Below, one piece after another: positions 32,575 through 48,058 of a stretch of 64,000 nucleotides of DNA. Each line of letters starts with the position of its first letter. The stretch's first letter is position 1. A model generated the notes under the pieces. That model was not told the origin of the DNA. It saw only the letters and a program-made list of their open reading frames with translations, and did not search any database. The stretch is from an uncultured bacterium (GTDB lineage Bacteria > Patescibacteriota > Minisyncoccia > Phycocordibacterales > GCA-2401445): assembly GCA_937952265.1 (NCBI GenBank), contig CALFYW010000055.1:58478-122477 (forward strand), read 5' to 3'. A program made the translations under genes and the position numbers.

Positions 32575-34290
32575 ATGGCTTCGTTCATCATCTATTGTAG
32601 AAAATCTACCGAATCAGAAGATCGCCAAGTACTATCCATTGAATCTCAGGTGAACGAGATCCGTGAACTTGCCCGGAAGCTCGGGATTTCCGTATCAACC
32701 GTTCTTACGGAATCTAAATCCGCGAAGGCGCCTGGTCGCCCGATCTTCAACGACATGATACAACGCGTTTACCGCGGAGAGGTTCAAGGGATTCTATGCT
32801 GGAAACTTGATCGCCTTGCGCGCAATCCCGTTGATGGGGGATCCCTCATCTGGGCACTCAAACAGCATGGCCTCCAGATCATCACCCCTACTCAGCGTTT
32901 CAGCCAAATCGAGGATAATACCATTCTGATGTATGTTGAGTTCGGGATGGCACAGAAATATGTTGATGATCTCAGCCGGAACGTGAAGCGCGGGCTCAAA
33001 ACAAAAGCTGAGAAGGGCTGGTGCCCGGGGCTCTCTCCCTTGGGGTATCTCAACGTCGTCACAAAGTCCGGTGAACGTCAACTAGTCATGGATCCCGACC
33101 GCTTTCATATCATTCGCCGAATCTGGGATCTTATGCTTTCGGGTAACTACTCAACCACAAAGATCCTTGAGATCGCCAACGGAAGCTGGGGATTGCGCAC
33201 GCGCCCAATGCGCCGACAAGGGGGAAAGCCGTTGGCACGCAGTGGCCTGTATCGGCTCCTCTCCAATCCCTTCTACTATGGCTCCTTTGAATACCCCCGG
33301 AATTCTGGCTCATGGCACCGCGGGAATCACGAACCAATGATCACTCAAGCGGAATTCGACCGAGTCCAAATCCTTCTTGGGAAGAGGACCTCCAATTCCC
33401 CACGAAATACCTGTCGGTTCACCTTCAGCGGCATGATCCATTGTGGTGAATGTGGCGGAGCGGTCACGGCCGAGGAGAAACACCAAATCATCTGTAGCTC
33501 CTGTCGAGTGAAGTTCGCGCGCGGAAACCGTGATCAGTGTCCGGAATGCAACGTTCGCATTGATCGTATGGAGAAACCCATTCTCCTCCATTACGTCTAT
33601 TACCACTGTGCCAAAAGCAAGAATCCCCGGTGTCGACAACGGGGAATTGAAACAAAGAAGCTCGAACGGCAGATCCACGAGTTCCTTCAAAGGCTCGAGC
33701 TTGCGAGTGAATTCCGTGACTGGGCGCTCGATTTTCTAGAAGCGTTATCGGAGAACCAATTCACCAATGCGCAGGTCGTTCGCGCTTCGCAGGAAAATAC
33801 CCTTCGGACGTGCCTTAAACACCTTGACGGACTGATCACGCTTAAGACAGCTCCGGAGAACGCTCAAGGAAACCTCATTTCCAACGAAGAGTATGCGCGT
33901 CAACGCAGCACACTCTTATCTCAGAAACAATCCTTGGAAGATGCGCTCTCTAAAAAACCGCCAACTTCAATCGATATCCGAAACGCTGCTATCTCGGTGT
34001 TTGACTATGCCGATACAGCAGCAAAGCGTTTCAAATCTGGTGACGCATCCACCAAACGAGCAATACTCACGCGCGTTGGTTCGAACCTACGACTAACCGA
34101 CAAAATGCTCAGTATTGAAGCCACGGATCCCTTTCATATATTCCTCGAATACCAGAAAGGCTCTGAACATGAAAACGATGAGTTCGAACCTGACTTTCAT
34201 GGCTCTGTTGAGTGGGATTTGGAGCGCTTTGAACCATATCGTCCTATTGGGCTCCGGCGGCAGGATTCGAACCTGCGACCAATCGGTTAA
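32575..34290 (+). mobile_element. Large serine recombinase (resolvase/invertase catalytic domain, recombinase domain, zinc ribbon, coiled coil)
   Basis: N-terminal IIYCRKSTESEDRQVLSIESQ carries the catalytic Ser in the YxRxST context. A Cys4 zinc ribbon CGECGG...C is present, and length is about 570 aa. The ORF's last roughly 15 codons read through the tRNA-Asn 3' end, so the true stop may lie earlier. Confidence 0.85.
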
Positions 34291-39735: not shown

Positions 39736-40521
39736 CTAAAGATGAATTTCTGCAACAAGCTCAGTTCCATCAAGCAGATAGAGCCTACTACTTGTTGCGG
39801 AGACCTTCATAAACCGCACCTCACCTCCTTTATAGACAGGTTGTCGGTTTTGTGTTCCTCGAGTATCAATTTCAAGGGCATATATTCCGTTTTGGTCTCC
39901 AATAAGCAAGAGGTGATCTTCTTCTTTAAAGAAGTCGATATTATTAATCTCACCAATGATATCTCCGGTAGGTATGTTTCGGGTTAATTGGCAGGGGGTA
40001 TTTTGAGCGCAAAACCACTCGGGTGGTTTCCGTTCAGGGAGCCATGATGCCTTAAGTGCCCCATCTTCAATCCAAATGGCAACATTTCCTGAAGGTGAGA
40101 TTCGTCGTGTGTTTGTAGGGGGTTTGATATTTCGGAGCGTTGCTTTAATTGTTTGGTATTCAGGGTCTCCCGTAGGAATCAAAAGGCCGGTAGTATTTTT
40201 TTTAATCAAAAAAGGGAAGAGTGTCGTGGGGGTTTCAGGGTGTGGGGTTATGGTTTTAACCCATGGCCAATATTTGTCTTCTGCAATAAGAACCGTATGT
40301 TTTTTTTCGGTTGAGAGCTCAAAGCTAAGCTCTTTTTCAGTATCTCGATGTCTTTGTTCCGAAGTATCGATGAAGACACGTGCATCTGCCTCGGGGAGTG
40401 TAAAGCGTACGACCCCTTTGGGAGTTCGGTTGAAAACAAGGAGGGAGATACTCCCTATAATTGCAATACCAATAAATATCCACAGAATCCGATAAAATAG
40501 AGGCTTTCGTCTTGGTTCCAT
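39736..40521 (-). CDS. Hypothetical membrane-anchored protein
   Basis: N-terminal TM helix (ILWIFIGIAIIGSISLLVF). No motif recognised. Confidence 0.35.
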   Translation of the reverse strand: MEPRRKPLFYRILWIFIGIAIIGSISLLVFNRTPKGVVRFTLPEADARVFIDTSEQRHRDTEKELSFELSTEKKHTVLIAEDKYWPWVKTITPHPETPTTLFPFLIKKNTTGLLIPTGDPEYQTIKATLRNIKPPTNTRRISPSGNVAIWIEDGALKASWLPERKPPEWFCAQNTPCQLTRNIPTGDIIGEINNIDFFKEEDHLLLIGDQNGIYALEIDTRGTQNRQPVYKGGEVRFMKVSATSSRLYLLDGTELVAEIHL

Positions 40522-40572: not shown

Positions 40573-42114
40573 CTATTTACCAGCCGATAACAGAGTAATT
40601 TTTGCGCCAAGTGAGTTAAGTCGAGCGATAATATCCTCATAGCCTCGATTGATGCTGTAGATATTGCGAAGTGTCGATACTCCTTTTGCCGCGAGCATAC
40701 CAATAAGGATAATAGCTCCAGGTCGAAGGGCGGGCGGAGTAATTACTTCATTCGCGATTAGATTCGTGGGGCCGGTAATATAGATTCGGTGTGGATCCGC
40801 AAGAATAGTTTCTGCTCCGAGTTTATCGAGTTCTTTGTAATAAATTGCCCGTTCCTCATAAACCCAATCGTGAATAAAGGTTTGACCTTTTGCCTGGGTT
40901 GCAATCACCGCAAAAAAAGGAAGGTTGTCGATATTGAGCCCTGGGTACGGGCGCGATTCTATTTTCTCTTCAAGGGCGCTTAGCGTACTCGGAAATGTCT
41001 TTATGTCTACCAGATTCGTTTTTTCATTAAGTGCTTTATACCTTTTAAGAATGGTGTATTTAAATCCCATTTTCTCGAGTTTCAGAAGCTCGAGTTCAAG
41101 GAAGTCGATAGGGCATCGGCGGATGGTGATGGCGGATCGAGTTACAATTGCTGCGGAGAGAAAGAACATCGCTTCAATCGGGTCTTCGCTCACCGCATAG
41201 GTAATATCAGTATTAATATCGGGTTTTCCTTCTATCGTAAGTGTGGTCGTACCAATTCCTTGAATAGTAACTCCGAGAGTCTCCAAGAAGAAACATAAAT
41301 CTTGCACTTGGTAATTTGCCGATGCAAATTTGATTACGGTTTTCCCAGGGATACGAGCCGCCGCCATAATGGCATTTTCGGTAACGGTATCACCAGATTC
41401 ATACAGCACTACTTCATTGGGGGTGAGTGTGTGGCGACTGATATGGTAATCTTCTTCTTTCGAGACAATAGAGACCCCAAATCGCTCAAGCGCAAAAAGG
41501 TGGGGCTTAACCGTGCGTGAGCCAAGTTTACATCCACCCGGGTGGGGTAGTGAGAATTTCTTAAAATAATGAATAAGCGGCCCAAAGAGGAGCGCAATAC
41601 TGCGTGTACGGACCGCAGAGGCGCGATTGATATGTGTGATGTCGATATGATCTGGCGGAGTAATTTCCATTGCACTGTCGTTCCATCGAACTATGACACC
41701 GATACTTTCGAGCACTTCAACAAGCCGAAACACCTCTTCAATACGTGGCATGTTCTTGAGCGTGGTCTTTCCTTGGTTGAGTAGTGAGGCAGCCATAAGG
41801 GCAACCGCACCATTTTTTGATGTCTTAATGGTTACCTCGCCTTTAAGTTTATGTCTCCCTTCAATTTGAATATTAATCGCATCATTACCGAGAGTGATCA
41901 CAGGTGTGTTGAGGGCACTACTTACCCGCGCAATCATTTCAGTGCTCATATTTTGCTCACCTCGCTCAATACGGGCAATCGCGCTTTGGGTGGTTTGAAC
42001 GCGTGTCGCGAGTTCGTGTTGCGTAATTCCTTTTTTGTCACGAATCCTCTGAATCCTCTCTCCCAGGGCTTCTGACCCTGGGGTGAGCACCTCTTTTCTA
42101 ACTCCTTTTTTCAT
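40573..42114 (-). CDS. murA: XRE-HTH domain fused to UDP-N-acetylglucosamine 1-carboxyvinyltransferase (MurA)
   Basis: Residues about 15-75 form an XRE HTH (LGERIQRIRDKKGITQHELATRVQTTQSAIARIERGEQNMSTEMIARVSSAL). The remainder aligns with MurA along its length (KLKGEVTIKTSKNGAVALMAA..., C-terminal NRGYEDIIARLNSLGAKI). Start set at MKKGV (ATG at 42114); the ORF-track extension to 42156 runs through a palindrome. Confidence 0.8.
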   Translation of the reverse strand: MKKGVRKEVLTPGSEALGERIQRIRDKKGITQHELATRVQTTQSAIARIERGEQNMSTEMIARVSSALNTPVITLGNDAINIQIEGRHKLKGEVTIKTSKNGAVALMAASLLNQGKTTLKNMPRIEEVFRLVEVLESIGVIVRWNDSAMEITPPDHIDITHINRASAVRTRSIALLFGPLIHYFKKFSLPHPGGCKLGSRTVKPHLFALERFGVSIVSKEEDYHISRHTLTPNEVVLYESGDTVTENAIMAAARIPGKTVIKFASANYQVQDLCFFLETLGVTIQGIGTTTLTIEGKPDINTDITYAVSEDPIEAMFFLSAAIVTRSAITIRRCPIDFLELELLKLEKMGFKYTILKRYKALNEKTNLVDIKTFPSTLSALEEKIESRPYPGLNIDNLPFFAVIATQAKGQTFIHDWVYEERAIYYKELDKLGAETILADPHRIYITGPTNLIANEVITPPALRPGAIILIGMLAAKGVSTLRNIYSINRGYEDIIARLNSLGAKITLLSAGK

Positions 42115-42122
42115 AGTAAAAG

Positions 42123-42144
42123 TATATAGCATATATGCTATATA
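42123..42144. promoter_or_regulatory. 22-bp perfect palindrome TATATAGCATATATGCTATATA immediately upstream of the HTH-murA start; candidate operator
   Basis: Read directly from the sequence. Lies about 9 bp upstream of the ATG at 42114, in the 120-bp divergent spacer between murA and mreB. Confidence 0.45.
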
Positions 42145-42240
42145 TGCAAACCTCATTAGCTCTCTTACATACCCCCCCTTCTTATTTTATAGGTTTAATG
42201 CTTGTTTTTTCGTATCTTACCTATGCTATAATAGGTGTTC

Positions 42241-43257
42241 ATGAGCTTTTTTTCTTCAAAACTGGGGATTGATTTAGGAACGGCAAATACTTTGGTATTT
42301 TTACCCGGCAAAGGAGTGGTGCTTACGGAGCCCTCGGTTGTCGCGGTATCAGAAATAGATAACCGTATTCTTGCGGTAGGACTTGAGGCTAAGAGTATGA
42401 TCGGCAAGACTCCAGAAAGTATCATTGCATACCGTCCCATGAAAGATGGTGTTATCGCTGATTATCGAGTAACTGAAGCAATGCTTCGATACTATATTGG
42501 CAAGGCGCTTGGAAAATTGAATTTCTTTAAACCAGATGTGCTTGTCTCGGTTCCCGCGGGAGTAACATCAACTGAACGGCGTGCGGTAATTGAAGCTGCG
42601 ATAAAAGCAGGAGCTAAGAACGCGTATGTGGTTAAGGAACCCATTCTAGCCGCGATTGGTGCTGGTATTCCAATTCATGAGGCTCGCGGGCATATGATCA
42701 TTGATATTGGTGGTGGTACAACCGATGTTGCGGTTATTTCGCTTGGAGGAATTGTATCTTCAACGTCAGTGAAATGCGCGGGAAACCGAATTGATGCGGC
42801 AATCGCGGATTATATTAAAAGAACCTTTAACCTTGCGATTGGAGACCAAATGGCTGAAGAAATAAAAATCAATGTGGGATCCGCGGTACCACTCGAGGAG
42901 GAACTTTCAACCATGGTAAAGGGAAGAGACTATATCACGGGCATGCCCCGCACGACCGAGATTCGAAGCAATGAAATTGTCAAAGCAATCTCTCGTGAAT
43001 TACGGGAAATGATTAAAGCAGTAAAGGATGTGCTTCAAGAGACTCCTCCAGAGCTTGCCGCTGATATTATTGATCAGGGTATTACCATGACCGGTGGTTC
43101 ATCTCAGTTGCGAAATCTCACCGAGTTAATTTATCGTCGTACCGGTGTAAAGGCGGTACTTGCACCTGATCCTTTCTACTGTGTTGCTCGCGGCACGGGG
43201 GTTGCGCTTGAACACCTTGATGTTTACAAGAAGAGTATTATCTCAAAACGTAAATAA
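42241..43257 (+). CDS. mreB: Rod shape-determining protein MreB (copy 1)
   Basis: LGIDLGTANTLVF...EPSVVAV and actin-fold motifs throughout. Confidence 0.9.
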   Translation: MSFFSSKLGIDLGTANTLVFLPGKGVVLTEPSVVAVSEIDNRILAVGLEAKSMIGKTPESIIAYRPMKDGVIADYRVTEAMLRYYIGKALGKLNFFKPDVLVSVPAGVTSTERRAVIEAAIKAGAKNAYVVKEPILAAIGAGIPIHEARGHMIIDIGGGTTDVAVISLGGIVSSTSVKCAGNRIDAAIADYIKRTFNLAIGDQMAEEIKINVGSAVPLEEELSTMVKGRDYITGMPRTTEIRSNEIVKAISRELREMIKAVKDVLQETPPELAADIIDQGITMTGGSSQLRNLTELIYRRTGVKAVLAPDPFYCVARGTGVALEHLDVYKKSIISKRK

Positions 43258-46990: not shown

Positions 46991-48058
46991 ATGGCACGTA
47001 ACGTGATAAAAAAATTTATCCATTCCCTCTCGAATGATATTGGGATTGACCTGGGTACCGCAAATACCCTGGTGTATTTGCGTGGGAAAGGGATTGTGCT
47101 CAATGAGCCGAGTGTGGTCGCCGTAAATCAAAAGACTGGTACGGTGGTCGCGGTAGGTAATCAGGCGAAGTCAATGATTGGGAGAACTCCTGGGCACGTG
47201 GTCGCGGTGCGCCCGCTTGTTGATGGAGTGATTTCTGATTTTGAGGTAACTGAAGAGATGATTGCATATTTGATAAATAAGACCCAAGGCAATAATCGAA
47301 AATTTTTTGGTCCTCGTGTGGTTGTCGGTGTTCCTTCAGGTATTACCAACGTAGAGACTCGGGCTGTTCGTGATGCCACAAAAAATGCAGGTGCTCGGGA
47401 AGTTTATATTGTTGAGGAGCCTATGGCAGCAGCAATTGGGGTTCGTCTTCCGGTTCGGGATCCGGTAGGAAGTATGATTGTCGATATTGGGGGCGGCACC
47501 ACAGATATCGCGGTTATTGCGCTTGGGGGAATTGTTCGGTCAAAAAATATTCGTATTGCGGGAGACAAATTTAACCAAGATATTATCTCCTATATTCGAA
47601 GTGAGTTTAAGATTTTGATCGGTGAACGTACGGCGGAAGATATTAAGATTTCAATAGGAGCGATCGTTGAATCAGAAGATGGGCCCCTTGAGGCCGCGAT
47701 ACGAGGTCGTGACTTAGTTACCGGTCTTCCTCGGGAAGTGGTAATTACCGACTCTGATATTCGGGAAGCAATCTCGCAATCGATGAATACGCTCGTTGAC
47801 TCGGTAAGGGAAGTACTTGAAACCACCCCACCAGAAATGCTTTCGGATATTATGCATCGAGGCTTACATCTTGTTGGTGGAGGAGCGTTGATAAGGGGCA
47901 TTGGGCCTCTGTTAGAAGAATTTTTAAAAATCCCTATCTACATTGATGAAGATCCCATGACTGCGGTAGCCCGAGGGACGGGGGTTATCCTTGAAGATAT
48001 TGAAGGTTTTCAGGATGTCTTTATTGTAAACGAAGATGACCTACCTCCAAAAAAATAG
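46991..48058 (+). CDS. mreB: Rod shape-determining protein MreB (copy 2)
   Basis: IGIDLGTANTLVYLRGKGIVLNEPSVVAV. Paralogous to copy 1 and sits at the head of the mreCD-mrdA operon. Confidence 0.9.
   Translation: MARNVIKKFIHSLSNDIGIDLGTANTLVYLRGKGIVLNEPSVVAVNQKTGTVVAVGNQAKSMIGRTPGHVVAVRPLVDGVISDFEVTEEMIAYLINKTQGNNRKFFGPRVVVGVPSGITNVETRAVRDATKNAGAREVYIVEEPMAAAIGVRLPVRDPVGSMIVDIGGGTTDIAVIALGGIVRSKNIRIAGDKFNQDIISYIRSEFKILIGERTAEDIKISIGAIVESEDGPLEAAIRGRDLVTGLPREVVITDSDIREAISQSMNTLVDSVREVLETTPPEMLSDIMHRGLHLVGGGALIRGIGPLLEEFLKIPIYIDEDPMTAVARGTGVILEDIEGFQDVFIVNEDDLPPKK

What the first reader, a model, noticed from the sequence alone, without database searches (positions are those of the whole stretch)
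40573..42156. MurA carrying an N-terminal XRE helix-turn-helix, with a 22-bp perfect palindrome abutting its start codon
The first enzyme of peptidoglycan synthesis (MurA) is translated as one polypeptide with a canonical XRE DNA-binding domain. The open frame is continuous from MKKGV through the HTH into the MurA N-terminus (KLKGEVTIKTSKNGA...). Nine bp upstream of the start is TATATAGCATATATGCTATATA, the kind of dyad an XRE dimer would bind. This suggests direct transcriptional feedback by a cell-wall enzyme. HTH-enzyme fusions exist (for example BirA, PutA), but I am not aware of this one for MurA. The palindrome also sits in the short divergent spacer shared with mreB.
Basis: partly seen in the sequence, partly recalled or inferred. 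Interest (0 to 1): 0.6.

Follow-up and report, generated by a model that had tools for sequence, protein, structure and literature searches.

The report
Cell-wall enzyme MurA fused to its own repressor
The first enzyme of bacterial cell-wall synthesis is here made as one protein with a DNA-binding head. Comparison with hundreds of related genomes indicates that this head sits on a palindrome inside the gene's own promoter, so the enzyme most likely controls its own production. I found no paper describing this arrangement.

Summary
Window 40573-42114 (-) encodes a 513-aa protein with an XRE helix-turn-helix (aa 17-72), a short linker, and a full MurA with every catalytic residue. The perfect 22-bp palindrome lies at 42123-42144, 8 nt before the ATG.

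The fusion is not an artefact. All 120 listed homologues share it, and a capped scan found at least 582 relatives in species-representative genomes, mainly Patescibacteria. It also occurs in cultured Nonomuraea.

The 16-bp core ATA(G/T)CATATATG(A/C)TAT lies upstream of 67 of 74 fused genes. It is absent from all 7 unfused orthologues, which represent about 3 separate HTH losses. It occurs only once elsewhere in 661 kb of flanks. It fills the -35/-10 spacer, and its right half forms an extended -10. The ATG follows within 13 nt in 37 of 67 loci, which implies leaderless mRNA.

The same palindrome and HTH subtype mark Gp49-toxin/XRE-antitoxin modules, a class in which autorepression by the antitoxin has been shown experimentally. 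A divergent subfamily keeps the HTH and operator but has lost the catalytic residues. It sits beside ordinary murA, murB and Mur-ligase genes.

Best reading: a bifunctional enzyme and autorepressor. No binding experiment exists.

The parts
40573..42114 (-). HTH-MurA coding sequence (513 aa plus stop), starting at MKKGV
   Evidence: ORF list; Pfam HTH_3 plus EPSP_synthase; NCBIfam MurA; 65-72% identical full-length homologues with the same architecture
41899..42066 (-). XRE/Cro-C1 helix-turn-helix domain (aa 17-72). The recognition helix is TTQSAIARIE, with Q43, S44, R48, E50, G52, Q54 and N55 invariant in the family
   Evidence: The closest solved relatives are DNA-binding XRE proteins: C.BclI, ClgR, CylR2, SinR and 434 repressor. 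The AF2 model shows four helices at 12-28, 32-39, 43-50 and 58-67
41878..41898 (-). Short linker (aa 73-79) joining the HTH to the first MurA strand
   Evidence: AF2 model: lower pLDDT over residues 68-79, and the first strand is 80-85; alignment A1
40576..41877 (-). MurA (UDP-GlcNAc 1-carboxyvinyltransferase) domain, aa 80-513. K100, N101, R171, C195, R200, D311, D396, R422 and R464 correspond to E. coli K22, N23, R91, C115, R120, D305, D369, R371 and R397
   Evidence: PDB MurA matches down to E 1e-55; these residues are invariant in alignment A1 and tabulated
41530..41532 (-). Codon of the catalytic Cys195 (PGGC loop)
   Evidence: Alignments; the flexible loop has low pLDDT at residues 195-198
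42123..42144 (.). Perfect 22-bp palindrome, the proposed operator. The conserved 16-bp core ATAGCATATATGCTAT is at 42126-42141
   Evidence: unique; 0 of 100 shuffles. The core is conserved in 67 of 74 fused loci and absent from 7 of 7 unfused loci. The same 18-mer occurs in Gp49/XRE toxin-antitoxin loci
42123..42131 (-). Extended -10 element TGcTATATA, formed by the gene-proximal half of the palindrome
   Evidence: Column counts across 67 loci give TG, any base, then TATAnT, with the final T present in 61 of 67; extended -10 scan; an alternative -10, TATACT at 42121-42126, was called by the scanner
42145..42150 (-). -35-like hexamer TTTGCA abutting the palindrome
   Evidence: Promoter scan; a TTGnnn element sits at the same place in relatives
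42115..42122 (-). 8-nt gap between operator and ATG with no Shine-Dalgarno sequence. The predicted transcript is leaderless or nearly so
   Evidence: Sequence. The gap from the 16-bp core to the ATG is 13 nt or less in 37 of 67 loci, with a mode of 9. This step is inferred; no 5'-end data exist
42241..43257 (+). Divergent mreB (context only, not shown to be regulated), with its own TGCTATAAT at 42224-42232, 8 nt before its ATG
   Evidence: mreB is divergent and directly adjacent in 38 of 80 related loci, and lies downstream in the same orientation in 8

Best explanation
The gene encodes a bifunctional protein: an active MurA enzyme that is also the repressor of its own gene. The N-terminal XRE helix-turn-helix most likely binds as a dimer to the palindrome at 42123-42144. 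That palindrome occupies the spacer between a -35-like TTTGCA and an extended -10 (TGcTATATA) of the murA promoter. A bound protein would therefore keep RNA polymerase off the promoter. As MurA protein accumulates, transcription of murA falls, which would hold the committed step of peptidoglycan synthesis at a set level. The mRNA is probably leaderless, because the ATG lies 8 nt after the -10.

Shown by sequence and comparison: the fusion is real, the catalytic residues are intact, and the operator is conserved, lies over the promoter and is coupled to presence of the HTH. Inferred: actual DNA binding, dimerisation, the direction of regulation (repression), and the leaderless start. More speculative: that the ligand state of the MurA domain (UDP-GlcNAc, PEP or UDP-MurNAc) tunes DNA binding. 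The HTH and operator most likely came as a cassette from a HigA-like antitoxin of a Gp49-family toxin-antitoxin module.
For: 1. The fusion is real and conserved. All 120 listed homologues carry HTH_3 plus EPSP_synthase at 65-72% identity. A capped scan of species-representative genomes gave at least 582 confirmed relatives.

2. The enzyme looks intact. All MurA catalytic residues are invariant. Unfused orthologues at 66-70% identity share the mreB-murA-priA synteny, so this is the housekeeping copy.

3. The operator is specific. ATA[GT]CATATATG[AC]TAT (2 mismatches or fewer) lies within 200 nt upstream in 66 of 80 related loci, with only 1 other hit in 661 kb. Most of the 7 apparent exceptions carry degenerate copies.

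4. Operator and HTH are coupled. Counts are 67/7 (HTH with/without operator) against 0/7 (no HTH), Fisher p = 1e-6. The unfused genes fall in 3 separate places in a tree of the MurA domains. They keep the extended -10 half but have lost the distal half-site.

5. The geometry fits a repressor. The core is symmetric, but the final T of the -10 hexamer is conserved only on the gene side (61 of 67). A -35-like TTG sits 15-18 nt upstream of the -10.

6. Both half-sites change together. ATAGC..GCTAT goes with a 'TTQS' recognition helix (33 of 41) and ATATC..GATAT with 'TSQS' (15 of 20).

7. There is independent support from other genes. An unbiased scan for the exact 18-mer in metagenomes returned 120 loci. 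Of these, 81 place it next to this HTH subtype or its toxin partner: 8 HTH-MurA and 73 Gp49-toxin/XRE-antitoxin modules. A Clostridium plasmid RelE/ParE-HTH operon has two tandem copies upstream. Gp49/Xre modules are autorepressed by the antitoxin in reporter experiments (PMC5906591).

8. Distant relatives keep the pair. The operator is kept upstream of the Nonomuraea paralogue in a 70% GC genome, and upstream of 6 of 6 genomic contexts tested for the catalytically dead HTH-MurA-like regulators that flank murA, murB and Mur-ligase genes.

9. The closest solved HTH relatives are DNA-binding autoregulators.
Against: There is no experimental evidence of DNA binding, dimerisation or repression. 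MurA enzymes are generally monomers (own knowledge), and the linker is only about 7 residues, so it is unclear how two HTH heads reach one palindrome. The proximal half of the palindrome is also a promoter element, so part of its conservation does not need a bound protein. The coupling statistics and the residue/base covariation are not corrected for shared ancestry beyond about 3 independent loss events. Antitoxins with a different residue ('TKQS') use the same 18-mer, so position 42 is not a simple specificity determinant. The TIGR01072 equivalog cutoff is not reached (322.8 against 392.7 bits). Only a 64-kb window is available, so a second murA elsewhere in this genome cannot be excluded.
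Confidence: 0.72

Rival explanations
1. The palindrome is only a strong promoter (extended -10 plus spacer) or a structure-forming DNA element. The HTH then has a non-DNA role, such as tethering MurA to MreB the way the RodZ HTH binds MreB.
For: The proximal half of the palindrome matches TGnTATAAT. murA-mreB adjacency is conserved, with mreB directly divergent in 38 of 80 loci and downstream in the same orientation in 8. The RodZ HTH is of the XRE type (own knowledge). The palindrome folds as a DNA hairpin better than shuffled sequence (z = -3).
Against: The distal half-site lies in the promoter spacer, where sequence is not normally constrained. It is conserved only when the HTH is present, and it decays in all 7 unfused orthologues although they keep the -10 and the mreB neighbour. 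The RodZ-type model HTH_25 scores only 12 bits (E 0.16, cutoff 24.6), against 50 bits for HTH_3. No transmembrane segment follows the HTH. The palindrome also accompanies this HTH subtype in loci with no mreB or murA.
Confidence: 0.07
2. The operator is mainly controlled in trans by free HigA-like antitoxins that recognise the same palindrome, and the fused HTH is an evolutionary leftover.
For: The identical 18-mer is used by many Gp49/XRE toxin-antitoxin modules, so cross-recognition is plausible.
Against: The DNA-contact residues of the fused HTH are invariant across hundreds of lineages and even in the pseudoenzyme subfamily. The operator disappears when the fused HTH is lost. No Gp49 toxin or second HTH of this type occurs in the window or in 661 kb of related flanks.
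Confidence: 0.08
3. The protein is chiefly a transcription factor that uses the MurA fold as a ligand sensor, and real MurA activity resides elsewhere in the genome.
For: A related subfamily is exactly this. It has lost C115, R120, R91 and R397 equivalents but keeps the HTH and operator, and it sits next to a canonical murA.
Against: The window protein keeps every catalytic residue. It occupies the same mreB-murA-priA position as unfused murA in sister lineages. No other MurA is seen in the 64-kb window.
Confidence: 0.08
4. The fusion is an assembly or sequencing artefact that joins a small HTH gene to murA.
For: The contig has low coverage (about 5.8x in the record name). The window differs from the public contig at 6 bases in 17.7 kb.
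Against: The same continuous frame is present in hundreds of independent assemblies, including closed Nonomuraea genomes. None of the 6 differences lies at the HTH-MurA junction.
Confidence: 0.01

Closest known systems
BirA (biotin protein ligase / bio operon repressor), the classic 'trigger enzyme'
   Same: One polypeptide carries an N-terminal DNA-binding domain and an active enzyme of the pathway it regulates. It binds a palindromic operator that overlaps the promoter.
   Different: BirA has a winged HTH, and its dimerisation is driven by the reaction intermediate biotinyl-AMP. Here the HTH is of the XRE type, the enzyme fold is EPSP-synthase-like, and the target is the protein's own gene. 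Any ligand control is unproven. (BirA facts are from own knowledge.)
PutA (proline utilisation flavoenzyme / put repressor)
   Same: An enzyme with an N-terminal DNA-binding domain represses its own gene from a divergent intergenic region.
   Different: PutA uses a ribbon-helix-helix, regulates both putA and putP, and switches by membrane association. Here the divergent mreB appears to have its own promoter. (PutA facts are from own knowledge.)
HigA2-type XRE antitoxins of Gp49 (HigB2/Tad) toxin-antitoxin modules, e.g. A. baumannii HigBA2
   Same: They share the HTH subtype (T-x-Q-S-x-[IV]-[AS]-R-[ILM]-E-x-G) and the same palindrome. In 27 sampled loci they share the same TTGACA-operator-TATAAT promoter with a start codon a few nt downstream. 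Autorepression by the antitoxin has been shown experimentally (PMC5906591).
   Different: The antitoxin neutralises a toxin encoded in the same operon. No Gp49 toxin is present near HTH-murA, and the domain attached to the HTH is an enzyme.
Controller (C) proteins of restriction-modification systems (C.BclI, C.AhdI)
   Same: They are the best sequence matches among solved structures (E 1e-6). They are small XRE dimers that bind palindromic boxes in their own promoters.
   Different: C proteins are stand-alone, about 80 aa, and act as both activator and repressor. They have no enzyme domain.
Known MurA control mechanisms: ClpCP/ReoM proteolysis in Firmicutes and UDP-MurNAc feedback inhibition
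   Same: They regulate the same step, the committed reaction of peptidoglycan synthesis.
   Different: Those mechanisms act after translation. Here control would be transcriptional and built into the enzyme. (From own knowledge; not tested here.)

Membership tests
MurA (UDP-N-acetylglucosamine 1-carboxyvinyltransferase) | Full-length match to curated MurA models | tested here: met
   NCBIfam PRK09369 scores 330.2 bits against a cutoff of 297. Pfam EPSP_synthase covers positions 2-416 of 417. The TIGR01072 equivalog cutoff is not reached (322.8 against 392.7). PDB MurA chains match down to E 1e-55.
MurA (UDP-N-acetylglucosamine 1-carboxyvinyltransferase) | Catalytic and substrate-binding residues (E. 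coli K22, N23, R91, C115, R120, D305, D369, R371, R397) | tested here: met
   K100, N101, R171, C195, R200, D311, D396, R422 and R464 are present and invariant in the fused clade. The mapping to E. coli numbering rests on the PDB alignments and own knowledge.
MurA (UDP-N-acetylglucosamine 1-carboxyvinyltransferase) | Orthology to the housekeeping murA | tested here: met
   The same mreB / murA / (TM protein) / priA neighbourhood is seen in fused and unfused relatives at 66-70% identity. Only 64 kb of this genome is visible.
MurA (UDP-N-acetylglucosamine 1-carboxyvinyltransferase) | Enolpyruvyl transfer activity | not testable with these tools
   This needs an enzyme assay or complementation.
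XRE / Cro-C1 HTH DNA-binding domain (PF01381) | Domain match above the curated cutoff | tested here: met
   HTH_3 scores 47-50 bits against a cutoff of 23. The AF2 model has helices at 12-28, 32-39, 43-50 and 58-67.
XRE / Cro-C1 HTH DNA-binding domain (PF01381) | A cognate palindromic site linked to the gene | tested here: met
   The operator is present in 67 of 74 HTH-bearing loci and in 0 of 7 HTH-less loci. It is essentially absent elsewhere. The same pair occurs in toxin-antitoxin loci.
XRE / Cro-C1 HTH DNA-binding domain (PF01381) | Dimerisation and sequence-specific DNA binding | not testable with these tools
   Only single-chain structure prediction is available. This needs EMSA, footprinting or SEC-MALS.
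Trigger enzyme (bifunctional enzyme and transcription regulator) | An intact enzyme and a DNA-binding domain in one polypeptide | tested here: met
   (at sequence level).
Trigger enzyme (bifunctional enzyme and transcription regulator) | Regulatory output depends on the enzyme's substrate or product state | not testable with these tools
   The only hint is indirect: pseudoenzyme relatives keep the MurA fold, the HTH and the operator.
RodZ-like MreB-binding HTH | HTH_25-type domain followed by a transmembrane segment | tested here: not met
   HTH_25 scores E 0.16 and 12.2 bits against a cutoff of 24.6. The HTH is followed directly by MurA with no TM segment.
HigA-type antitoxin of a Gp49/HigB2 toxin-antitoxin module | An adjacent Gp49/RelE-family toxin gene | tested here: not met
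   There is no Gp49-like ORF in the window or in the flanks of 80 related loci. The HTH and operator are shared with such antitoxins, so the relationship is one of descent, not membership.

The most novel reading that the evidence does not exclude
HTH-MurA proteins form an undescribed family of cell-wall regulators in which the MurA fold acts as a sensor of the UDP-sugar or PEP pool and gates an XRE head captured from a toxin-antitoxin module. In Paceibacteria the protein is both the enzyme and its own repressor. In a sister subfamily it has become a catalytically dead, dedicated regulator of divergent murA-murB and Mur-ligase/ddl operons. Because free antitoxins use the identical operator, toxin-antitoxin activity and cell-wall precursor synthesis could be transcriptionally cross-wired.
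Probability: 0.3. Interest if true: 0.8.

Novelty: new variant of a known kind. Interest (0 to 1): 0.62.

Why it matters
MurA catalyses the committed step of peptidoglycan synthesis and is the target of fosfomycin. The ways it is known to be controlled all act after translation. An enzyme that measures its own concentration, and possibly its substrate state, at its own promoter would be a new and very economical solution. It would operate across a large part of the uncultivated Patescibacteria, whose small genomes are thought to carry few regulators (own knowledge). The family offers three experimental handles: a simple, highly conserved operator; a version in cultivable Nonomuraea; and natural pseudoenzyme derivatives that separate sensing from catalysis. 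It also illustrates how a toxin-antitoxin promoter-operator-HTH cassette can be recruited to a core housekeeping gene.

Tried and rejected
1. Sequencing artefact: rejected, because the fusion is conserved in hundreds of assemblies.

2. RodZ-like MreB tether: HTH_25 gives only 12 bits and there is no TM segment. The operator also tracks the HTH in loci without mreB.

3. General promoter consensus of the organism: only 12 extended -10-like sites occur in 64 kb. Only murA and mreB have one 8 nt before a start codon. The mreB promoters of relatives do not resemble the operator.

4. A second operator-controlled gene (a regulon) in the window: the best other matches have 3 mismatches (47261 and 51571). 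The 47261 match lies inside the second mreB-like gene; the location of 51571 was not examined.

5. Known RNA element in the spacer: there was no Rfam match below E 0.4.

6. Literature: seven full-text searches covered MurA with HTH, XRE, CPR or Patescibacteria, the Pfam names, the operator sequence itself, and Gp49/HigA operators. None found a description of the fusion or of this operator. Two papers that looked promising were unrelated.

7. Taxon of the pseudoenzyme subfamily: cluster look-ups returned no source names, so it remains unassigned. Its nearest relatives are Patescibacteria proteins.

8. My first count of '34 of 120' 18-mer loci next to HTH-MurA was wrong, because HTH-only matches were included. 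The corrected count is 8.
Full report
**1. What is in the window**

The minus strand between 40573 and 42156 is one open frame. Its sensible start is the ATG at 42114 (MKKGV), which gives 513 aa. The public gene call for the same contig starts at the same residue.

Pfam places an XRE-type HTH_3 at aa 21-72 (E 2e-12) and EPSP_synthase at aa 85-498 (E 1e-47). NCBIfam names the enzyme part MurA: PRK09369 scores 330 bits against a cutoff of 297. Solved MurA structures match down to E 1e-55.

TATATAGCATATATGCTATATA lies at 42123-42144. It is a perfect palindrome and is unique in the window even with 3 mismatches; none of 100 shuffles contained a match. Eight nt separate it from the ATG. It lies in the 126-bp spacer shared with a divergent mreB (42241-43257, +).

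**2. The fusion is real, and the enzyme looks active**

A protein search returned 8000 scored relatives. All of the best 120 carry both domains, are 65-72% identical over the full length, and come from Patescibacteria/Paceibacteria assemblies annotated simply as MurA. A capped scan of one genome per species gave at least 582 confirmed relatives, and 80 loci were fetched.

In an alignment of 45 members, the HTH residues T31, Q32, Q43, S44, A47, R48, E50, G52, Q54 and N55 are invariant. So are the MurA residues K100, N101, R171, C195, R200, D311, D396, R422 and R464. These correspond to E. coli K22, N23, R91, C115, R120, D305, D369, R371 and R397.

The AF2 model (pLDDT 85.9) shows a four-helix HTH over residues 12-67, a lower-confidence linker at 68-79, and then the MurA fold. 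Unfused orthologues at 66-70% identity occupy the same mreB-murA-priA neighbourhood, so the fused gene is the housekeeping murA of these lineages. No second MurA or similar HTH is present in the 64-kb window.

**3. The palindrome is a conserved site coupled to the HTH**

The best inverted repeat upstream of the gene is the same sequence in relatives that share only 60-70% protein identity. The core ATA[GT]CATATATG[AC]TAT, allowing up to 2 mismatches, lies within 200 nt upstream in 66 of 80 loci. Only one other hit occurs in all 661 kb fetched.

Seven loci encode MurA without an HTH, and none has the motif. Seven HTH-bearing loci miss the threshold, but most of them show degenerate copies such as ATCGCTCATATGCTAT or ATAGCGCCTATGCTAT. 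Including the window, the table is 67/7 (HTH with/without operator) against 0/7 (no HTH), Fisher p = 1e-6.

A neighbour-joining tree of the MurA domains places the HTH-less genes in three separate positions inside the fused clade. The HTH was therefore lost about three times, each time together with the motif. In those genes the gene-proximal half survives as TGnTATAnT, while the distal half has decayed.

**4. Anatomy of the site**

Column counts over 67 instances give an 18-bp symmetric site, TATA(G/T)CATATATG(C/A)TATA. An extra T, conserved in 61 of 67, occurs only on the gene side. The proximal half therefore reads TG-n-TATAnT, an extended -10. A TTG-type -35 sits 15-18 nt upstream of the -10. 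In the window the scanner calls TTTGCA, 18 nt, TATACT.

The operator thus fills the spacer and the -10, which is the classic position for a repressor. The start codon follows the 16-bp core by 13 nt or less in 37 of 67 loci, with a mode of 9 nt. In the window it follows the 22-bp palindrome by 8 nt, with no Shine-Dalgarno sequence. I infer a leaderless or near-leaderless mRNA.

The half-sites change together. ATAGC..GCTAT goes with a 'TTQS' recognition helix in 33 of 41 cases, and ATATC..GATAT with 'TSQS' in 15 of 20. This fits co-evolution of a dimer and its site, but it is confounded by shared ancestry.

**5. Independent evidence from unrelated genes**

- Eight are HTH-MurA genes.
- In 27 (plus 4 cut by contig ends) the palindrome sits in a TTGACA-operator-TATAAT promoter. 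It lies 7-42 nt (81 nt in one locus where the toxin ORF start was mis-called) before a Gp49-family (HigB2/RelE-like) toxin gene, which is followed by an XRE antitoxin.
- In 42 it spans the junction between a Gp49 toxin and its antitoxin.

The antitoxin recognition helices (GTTQSAVARIE.G.QN, GTKQSVISRLE) keep Q43, R48 and E50. One antitoxin is about 60% identical (my estimate by eye) to the fused HTH over about 40 residues.

A Clostridium tyrobutyricum plasmid RelE/ParE-HTH operon has two tandem ATATCATATATGGTAT copies upstream. Gp49/Xre modules are autorepressed by the antitoxin in reporter assays (PMC5906591). No Gp49 toxin lies near any HTH-murA. The simplest history is that a HigA-like HTH, with its promoter and operator, was captured in front of murA.

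**6. The wider family**

A search of 1.84 billion representative proteins with the first 120 residues found 198 hits at E 1e-10 or better. A large share of the 150 best listed are single-stretch fusion-type matches; the rest are unrelated multi-HTH repeat proteins. Two results stand out.

First, cultured Nonomuraea (Actinomycetota) carry an HTH-MurA in a cluster of 246 member sequences, and the catalytic Cys is kept. In N. phyllanthi it follows a formyltransferase/enoyl-CoA-hydratase gene and precedes an integrase. A palindrome of the same family, ATCTCATATGTGAGAT, begins 28 nt (ends 12 nt) before its start, in a 70% GC genome.

Second, at least 12 distinct clusters encode HTH-MurA-like proteins that keep Q43, S44, R48 and E50. 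They have lost the GGC loop and, in nearly all members, the R120, R91 and R397 equivalents.

- In six of the eight loci fetched (five distinct contexts) they lie divergently next to a canonical 437-452-aa murA, usually with murB or Mur ligases. Where the downstream gene is visible it is a Mur ligase or ddl. In L214 the protein instead follows murB and a RelA/SpoT gene in the same orientation, and no canonical murA is visible.
- Each of the six distinct contexts has the operator directly upstream. One example is TTGACA-AT-ATATCATATATGATAT in a 60-nt intergenic region.

These pseudoenzymes argue that regulation is a core function of the family and that the MurA fold can act as a sensor.

**7. 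mreB**

mreB is divergent and directly adjacent in 38 of 80 loci. It is divergent but further away in 19, and downstream in the same orientation in 8. The gene pair is therefore conserved.

However, mreB has its own promoter-like element close to its ATG. In the window this is TGCTATAAT at 42224-42232. In relatives that element does not resemble the operator, which lies 43-190 nt away. Co-regulation of mreB is possible only where the two genes are tandem, and elsewhere it is unsupported.

**8. Rivals**

- A RodZ-like, MreB-binding role for the HTH is disfavoured: HTH_25 scores 12 bits, there is no TM segment, and the operator tracks the HTH.
- Control purely in trans by free antitoxins is disfavoured, because the fused HTH is conserved and is lost together with the operator.
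- A sensor-only role is disfavoured for this protein, because its catalytic site is intact and its synteny is that of murA.
- An artefact is excluded.
- No Rfam family matches the spacer.

**9. Novelty**

Seven literature searches found no description of the fusion or the operator. Enzyme-repressor fusions are a known kind (BirA, PutA, NadR; own knowledge). A MurA-XRE autorepressor with toxin-antitoxin ancestry and pseudoenzyme derivatives is a new variant of that kind. All functional statements remain inferences from sequence and comparison.

Noticed in passing
window 40719; also 46812, 46849, 47996, 48002, 48005: The window differs from the public contig (ENA ERZ869942 NODE_268, locus L001) at 6 bases in 17.7 kb, and all 6 change the protein. 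At 40719 the public version has TGA (a stop at codon 466 of HTH-MurA, giving a 465-aa product), where the window has GGA (Gly), the residue type seen in homologues. The other five fall in a class-II aminoacyl-tRNA synthetase gene (Pfam tRNA-synt_2b plus HGTP_anticodon) and a second mreB-like gene.
   Followed up: partly
window 42241-43257 and 46991-48058 (both +): Two MreB/Mbl-family genes lie within 6 kb of each other. One is divergent from HTH-murA and the other is further downstream.
   Followed up: no
window 42220-42235: The mreB promoter-like element CCTATGCTATAATAGG resembles one operator half-site and is itself a small inverted repeat. murA and mreB are the only two genes in the window with an extended -10 located 8 nt before the ATG. 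Relatives do not conserve this resemblance.
   Followed up: partly
L007, L018, L026, L028, L034, L052, L061, L064, L068 and others, 20-38 nt upstream of the operator; also toxin-antitoxin loci L083, L154, L172, L181, L190: A DnaA-box-like TTATCCACA (1 mismatch or fewer) lies just upstream of the operator/-35 in 12 of 66 murA loci, where about 1 is expected by chance. It also occurs in several Gp49 toxin-antitoxin promoters that carry the same operator. It is not present in the window.
   Followed up: partly
L082, L089, L099, L100 and about 38 more metagenome loci: In one abundant Gp49-toxin/XRE-antitoxin family the 18-bp palindrome spans the toxin stop codon and the antitoxin start codon. It may be an internal operator or promoter for the antitoxin, or a coupling hairpin.
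   Followed up: partly
L205 (Nonomuraea phyllanthi CP045572.1, 5667057-5680586): An HTH-MurA paralogue occurs in a cultured actinomycete, downstream of a LuxR-type regulator and a fused formyltransferase/enoyl-CoA hydratase gene and upstream of a phage-type integrase. This looks like an island, and its function is unknown.
   Followed up: partly
L207-L214: Catalytically degenerate HTH-MurA-like proteins lie next to canonical murA, murB, Mur ligases and a Ddl-peptidase C39 fusion. In L214 the protein follows a RelA/SpoT-family gene instead.
   Followed up: partly
window 39736-40521 (-): A 261-aa ORF with an N-terminal hydrophobic segment and no Pfam match lies between murA and priA. Weak homologues (28-35% identity) occupy the same position in 9 related loci.
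   Followed up: no
window 32575-34290 (+): A 571-aa serine recombinase (Resolvase/Recombinase/Zn_ribbon_recom) lies about 6 kb from murA. It may mark a mobile element.
   Followed up: no
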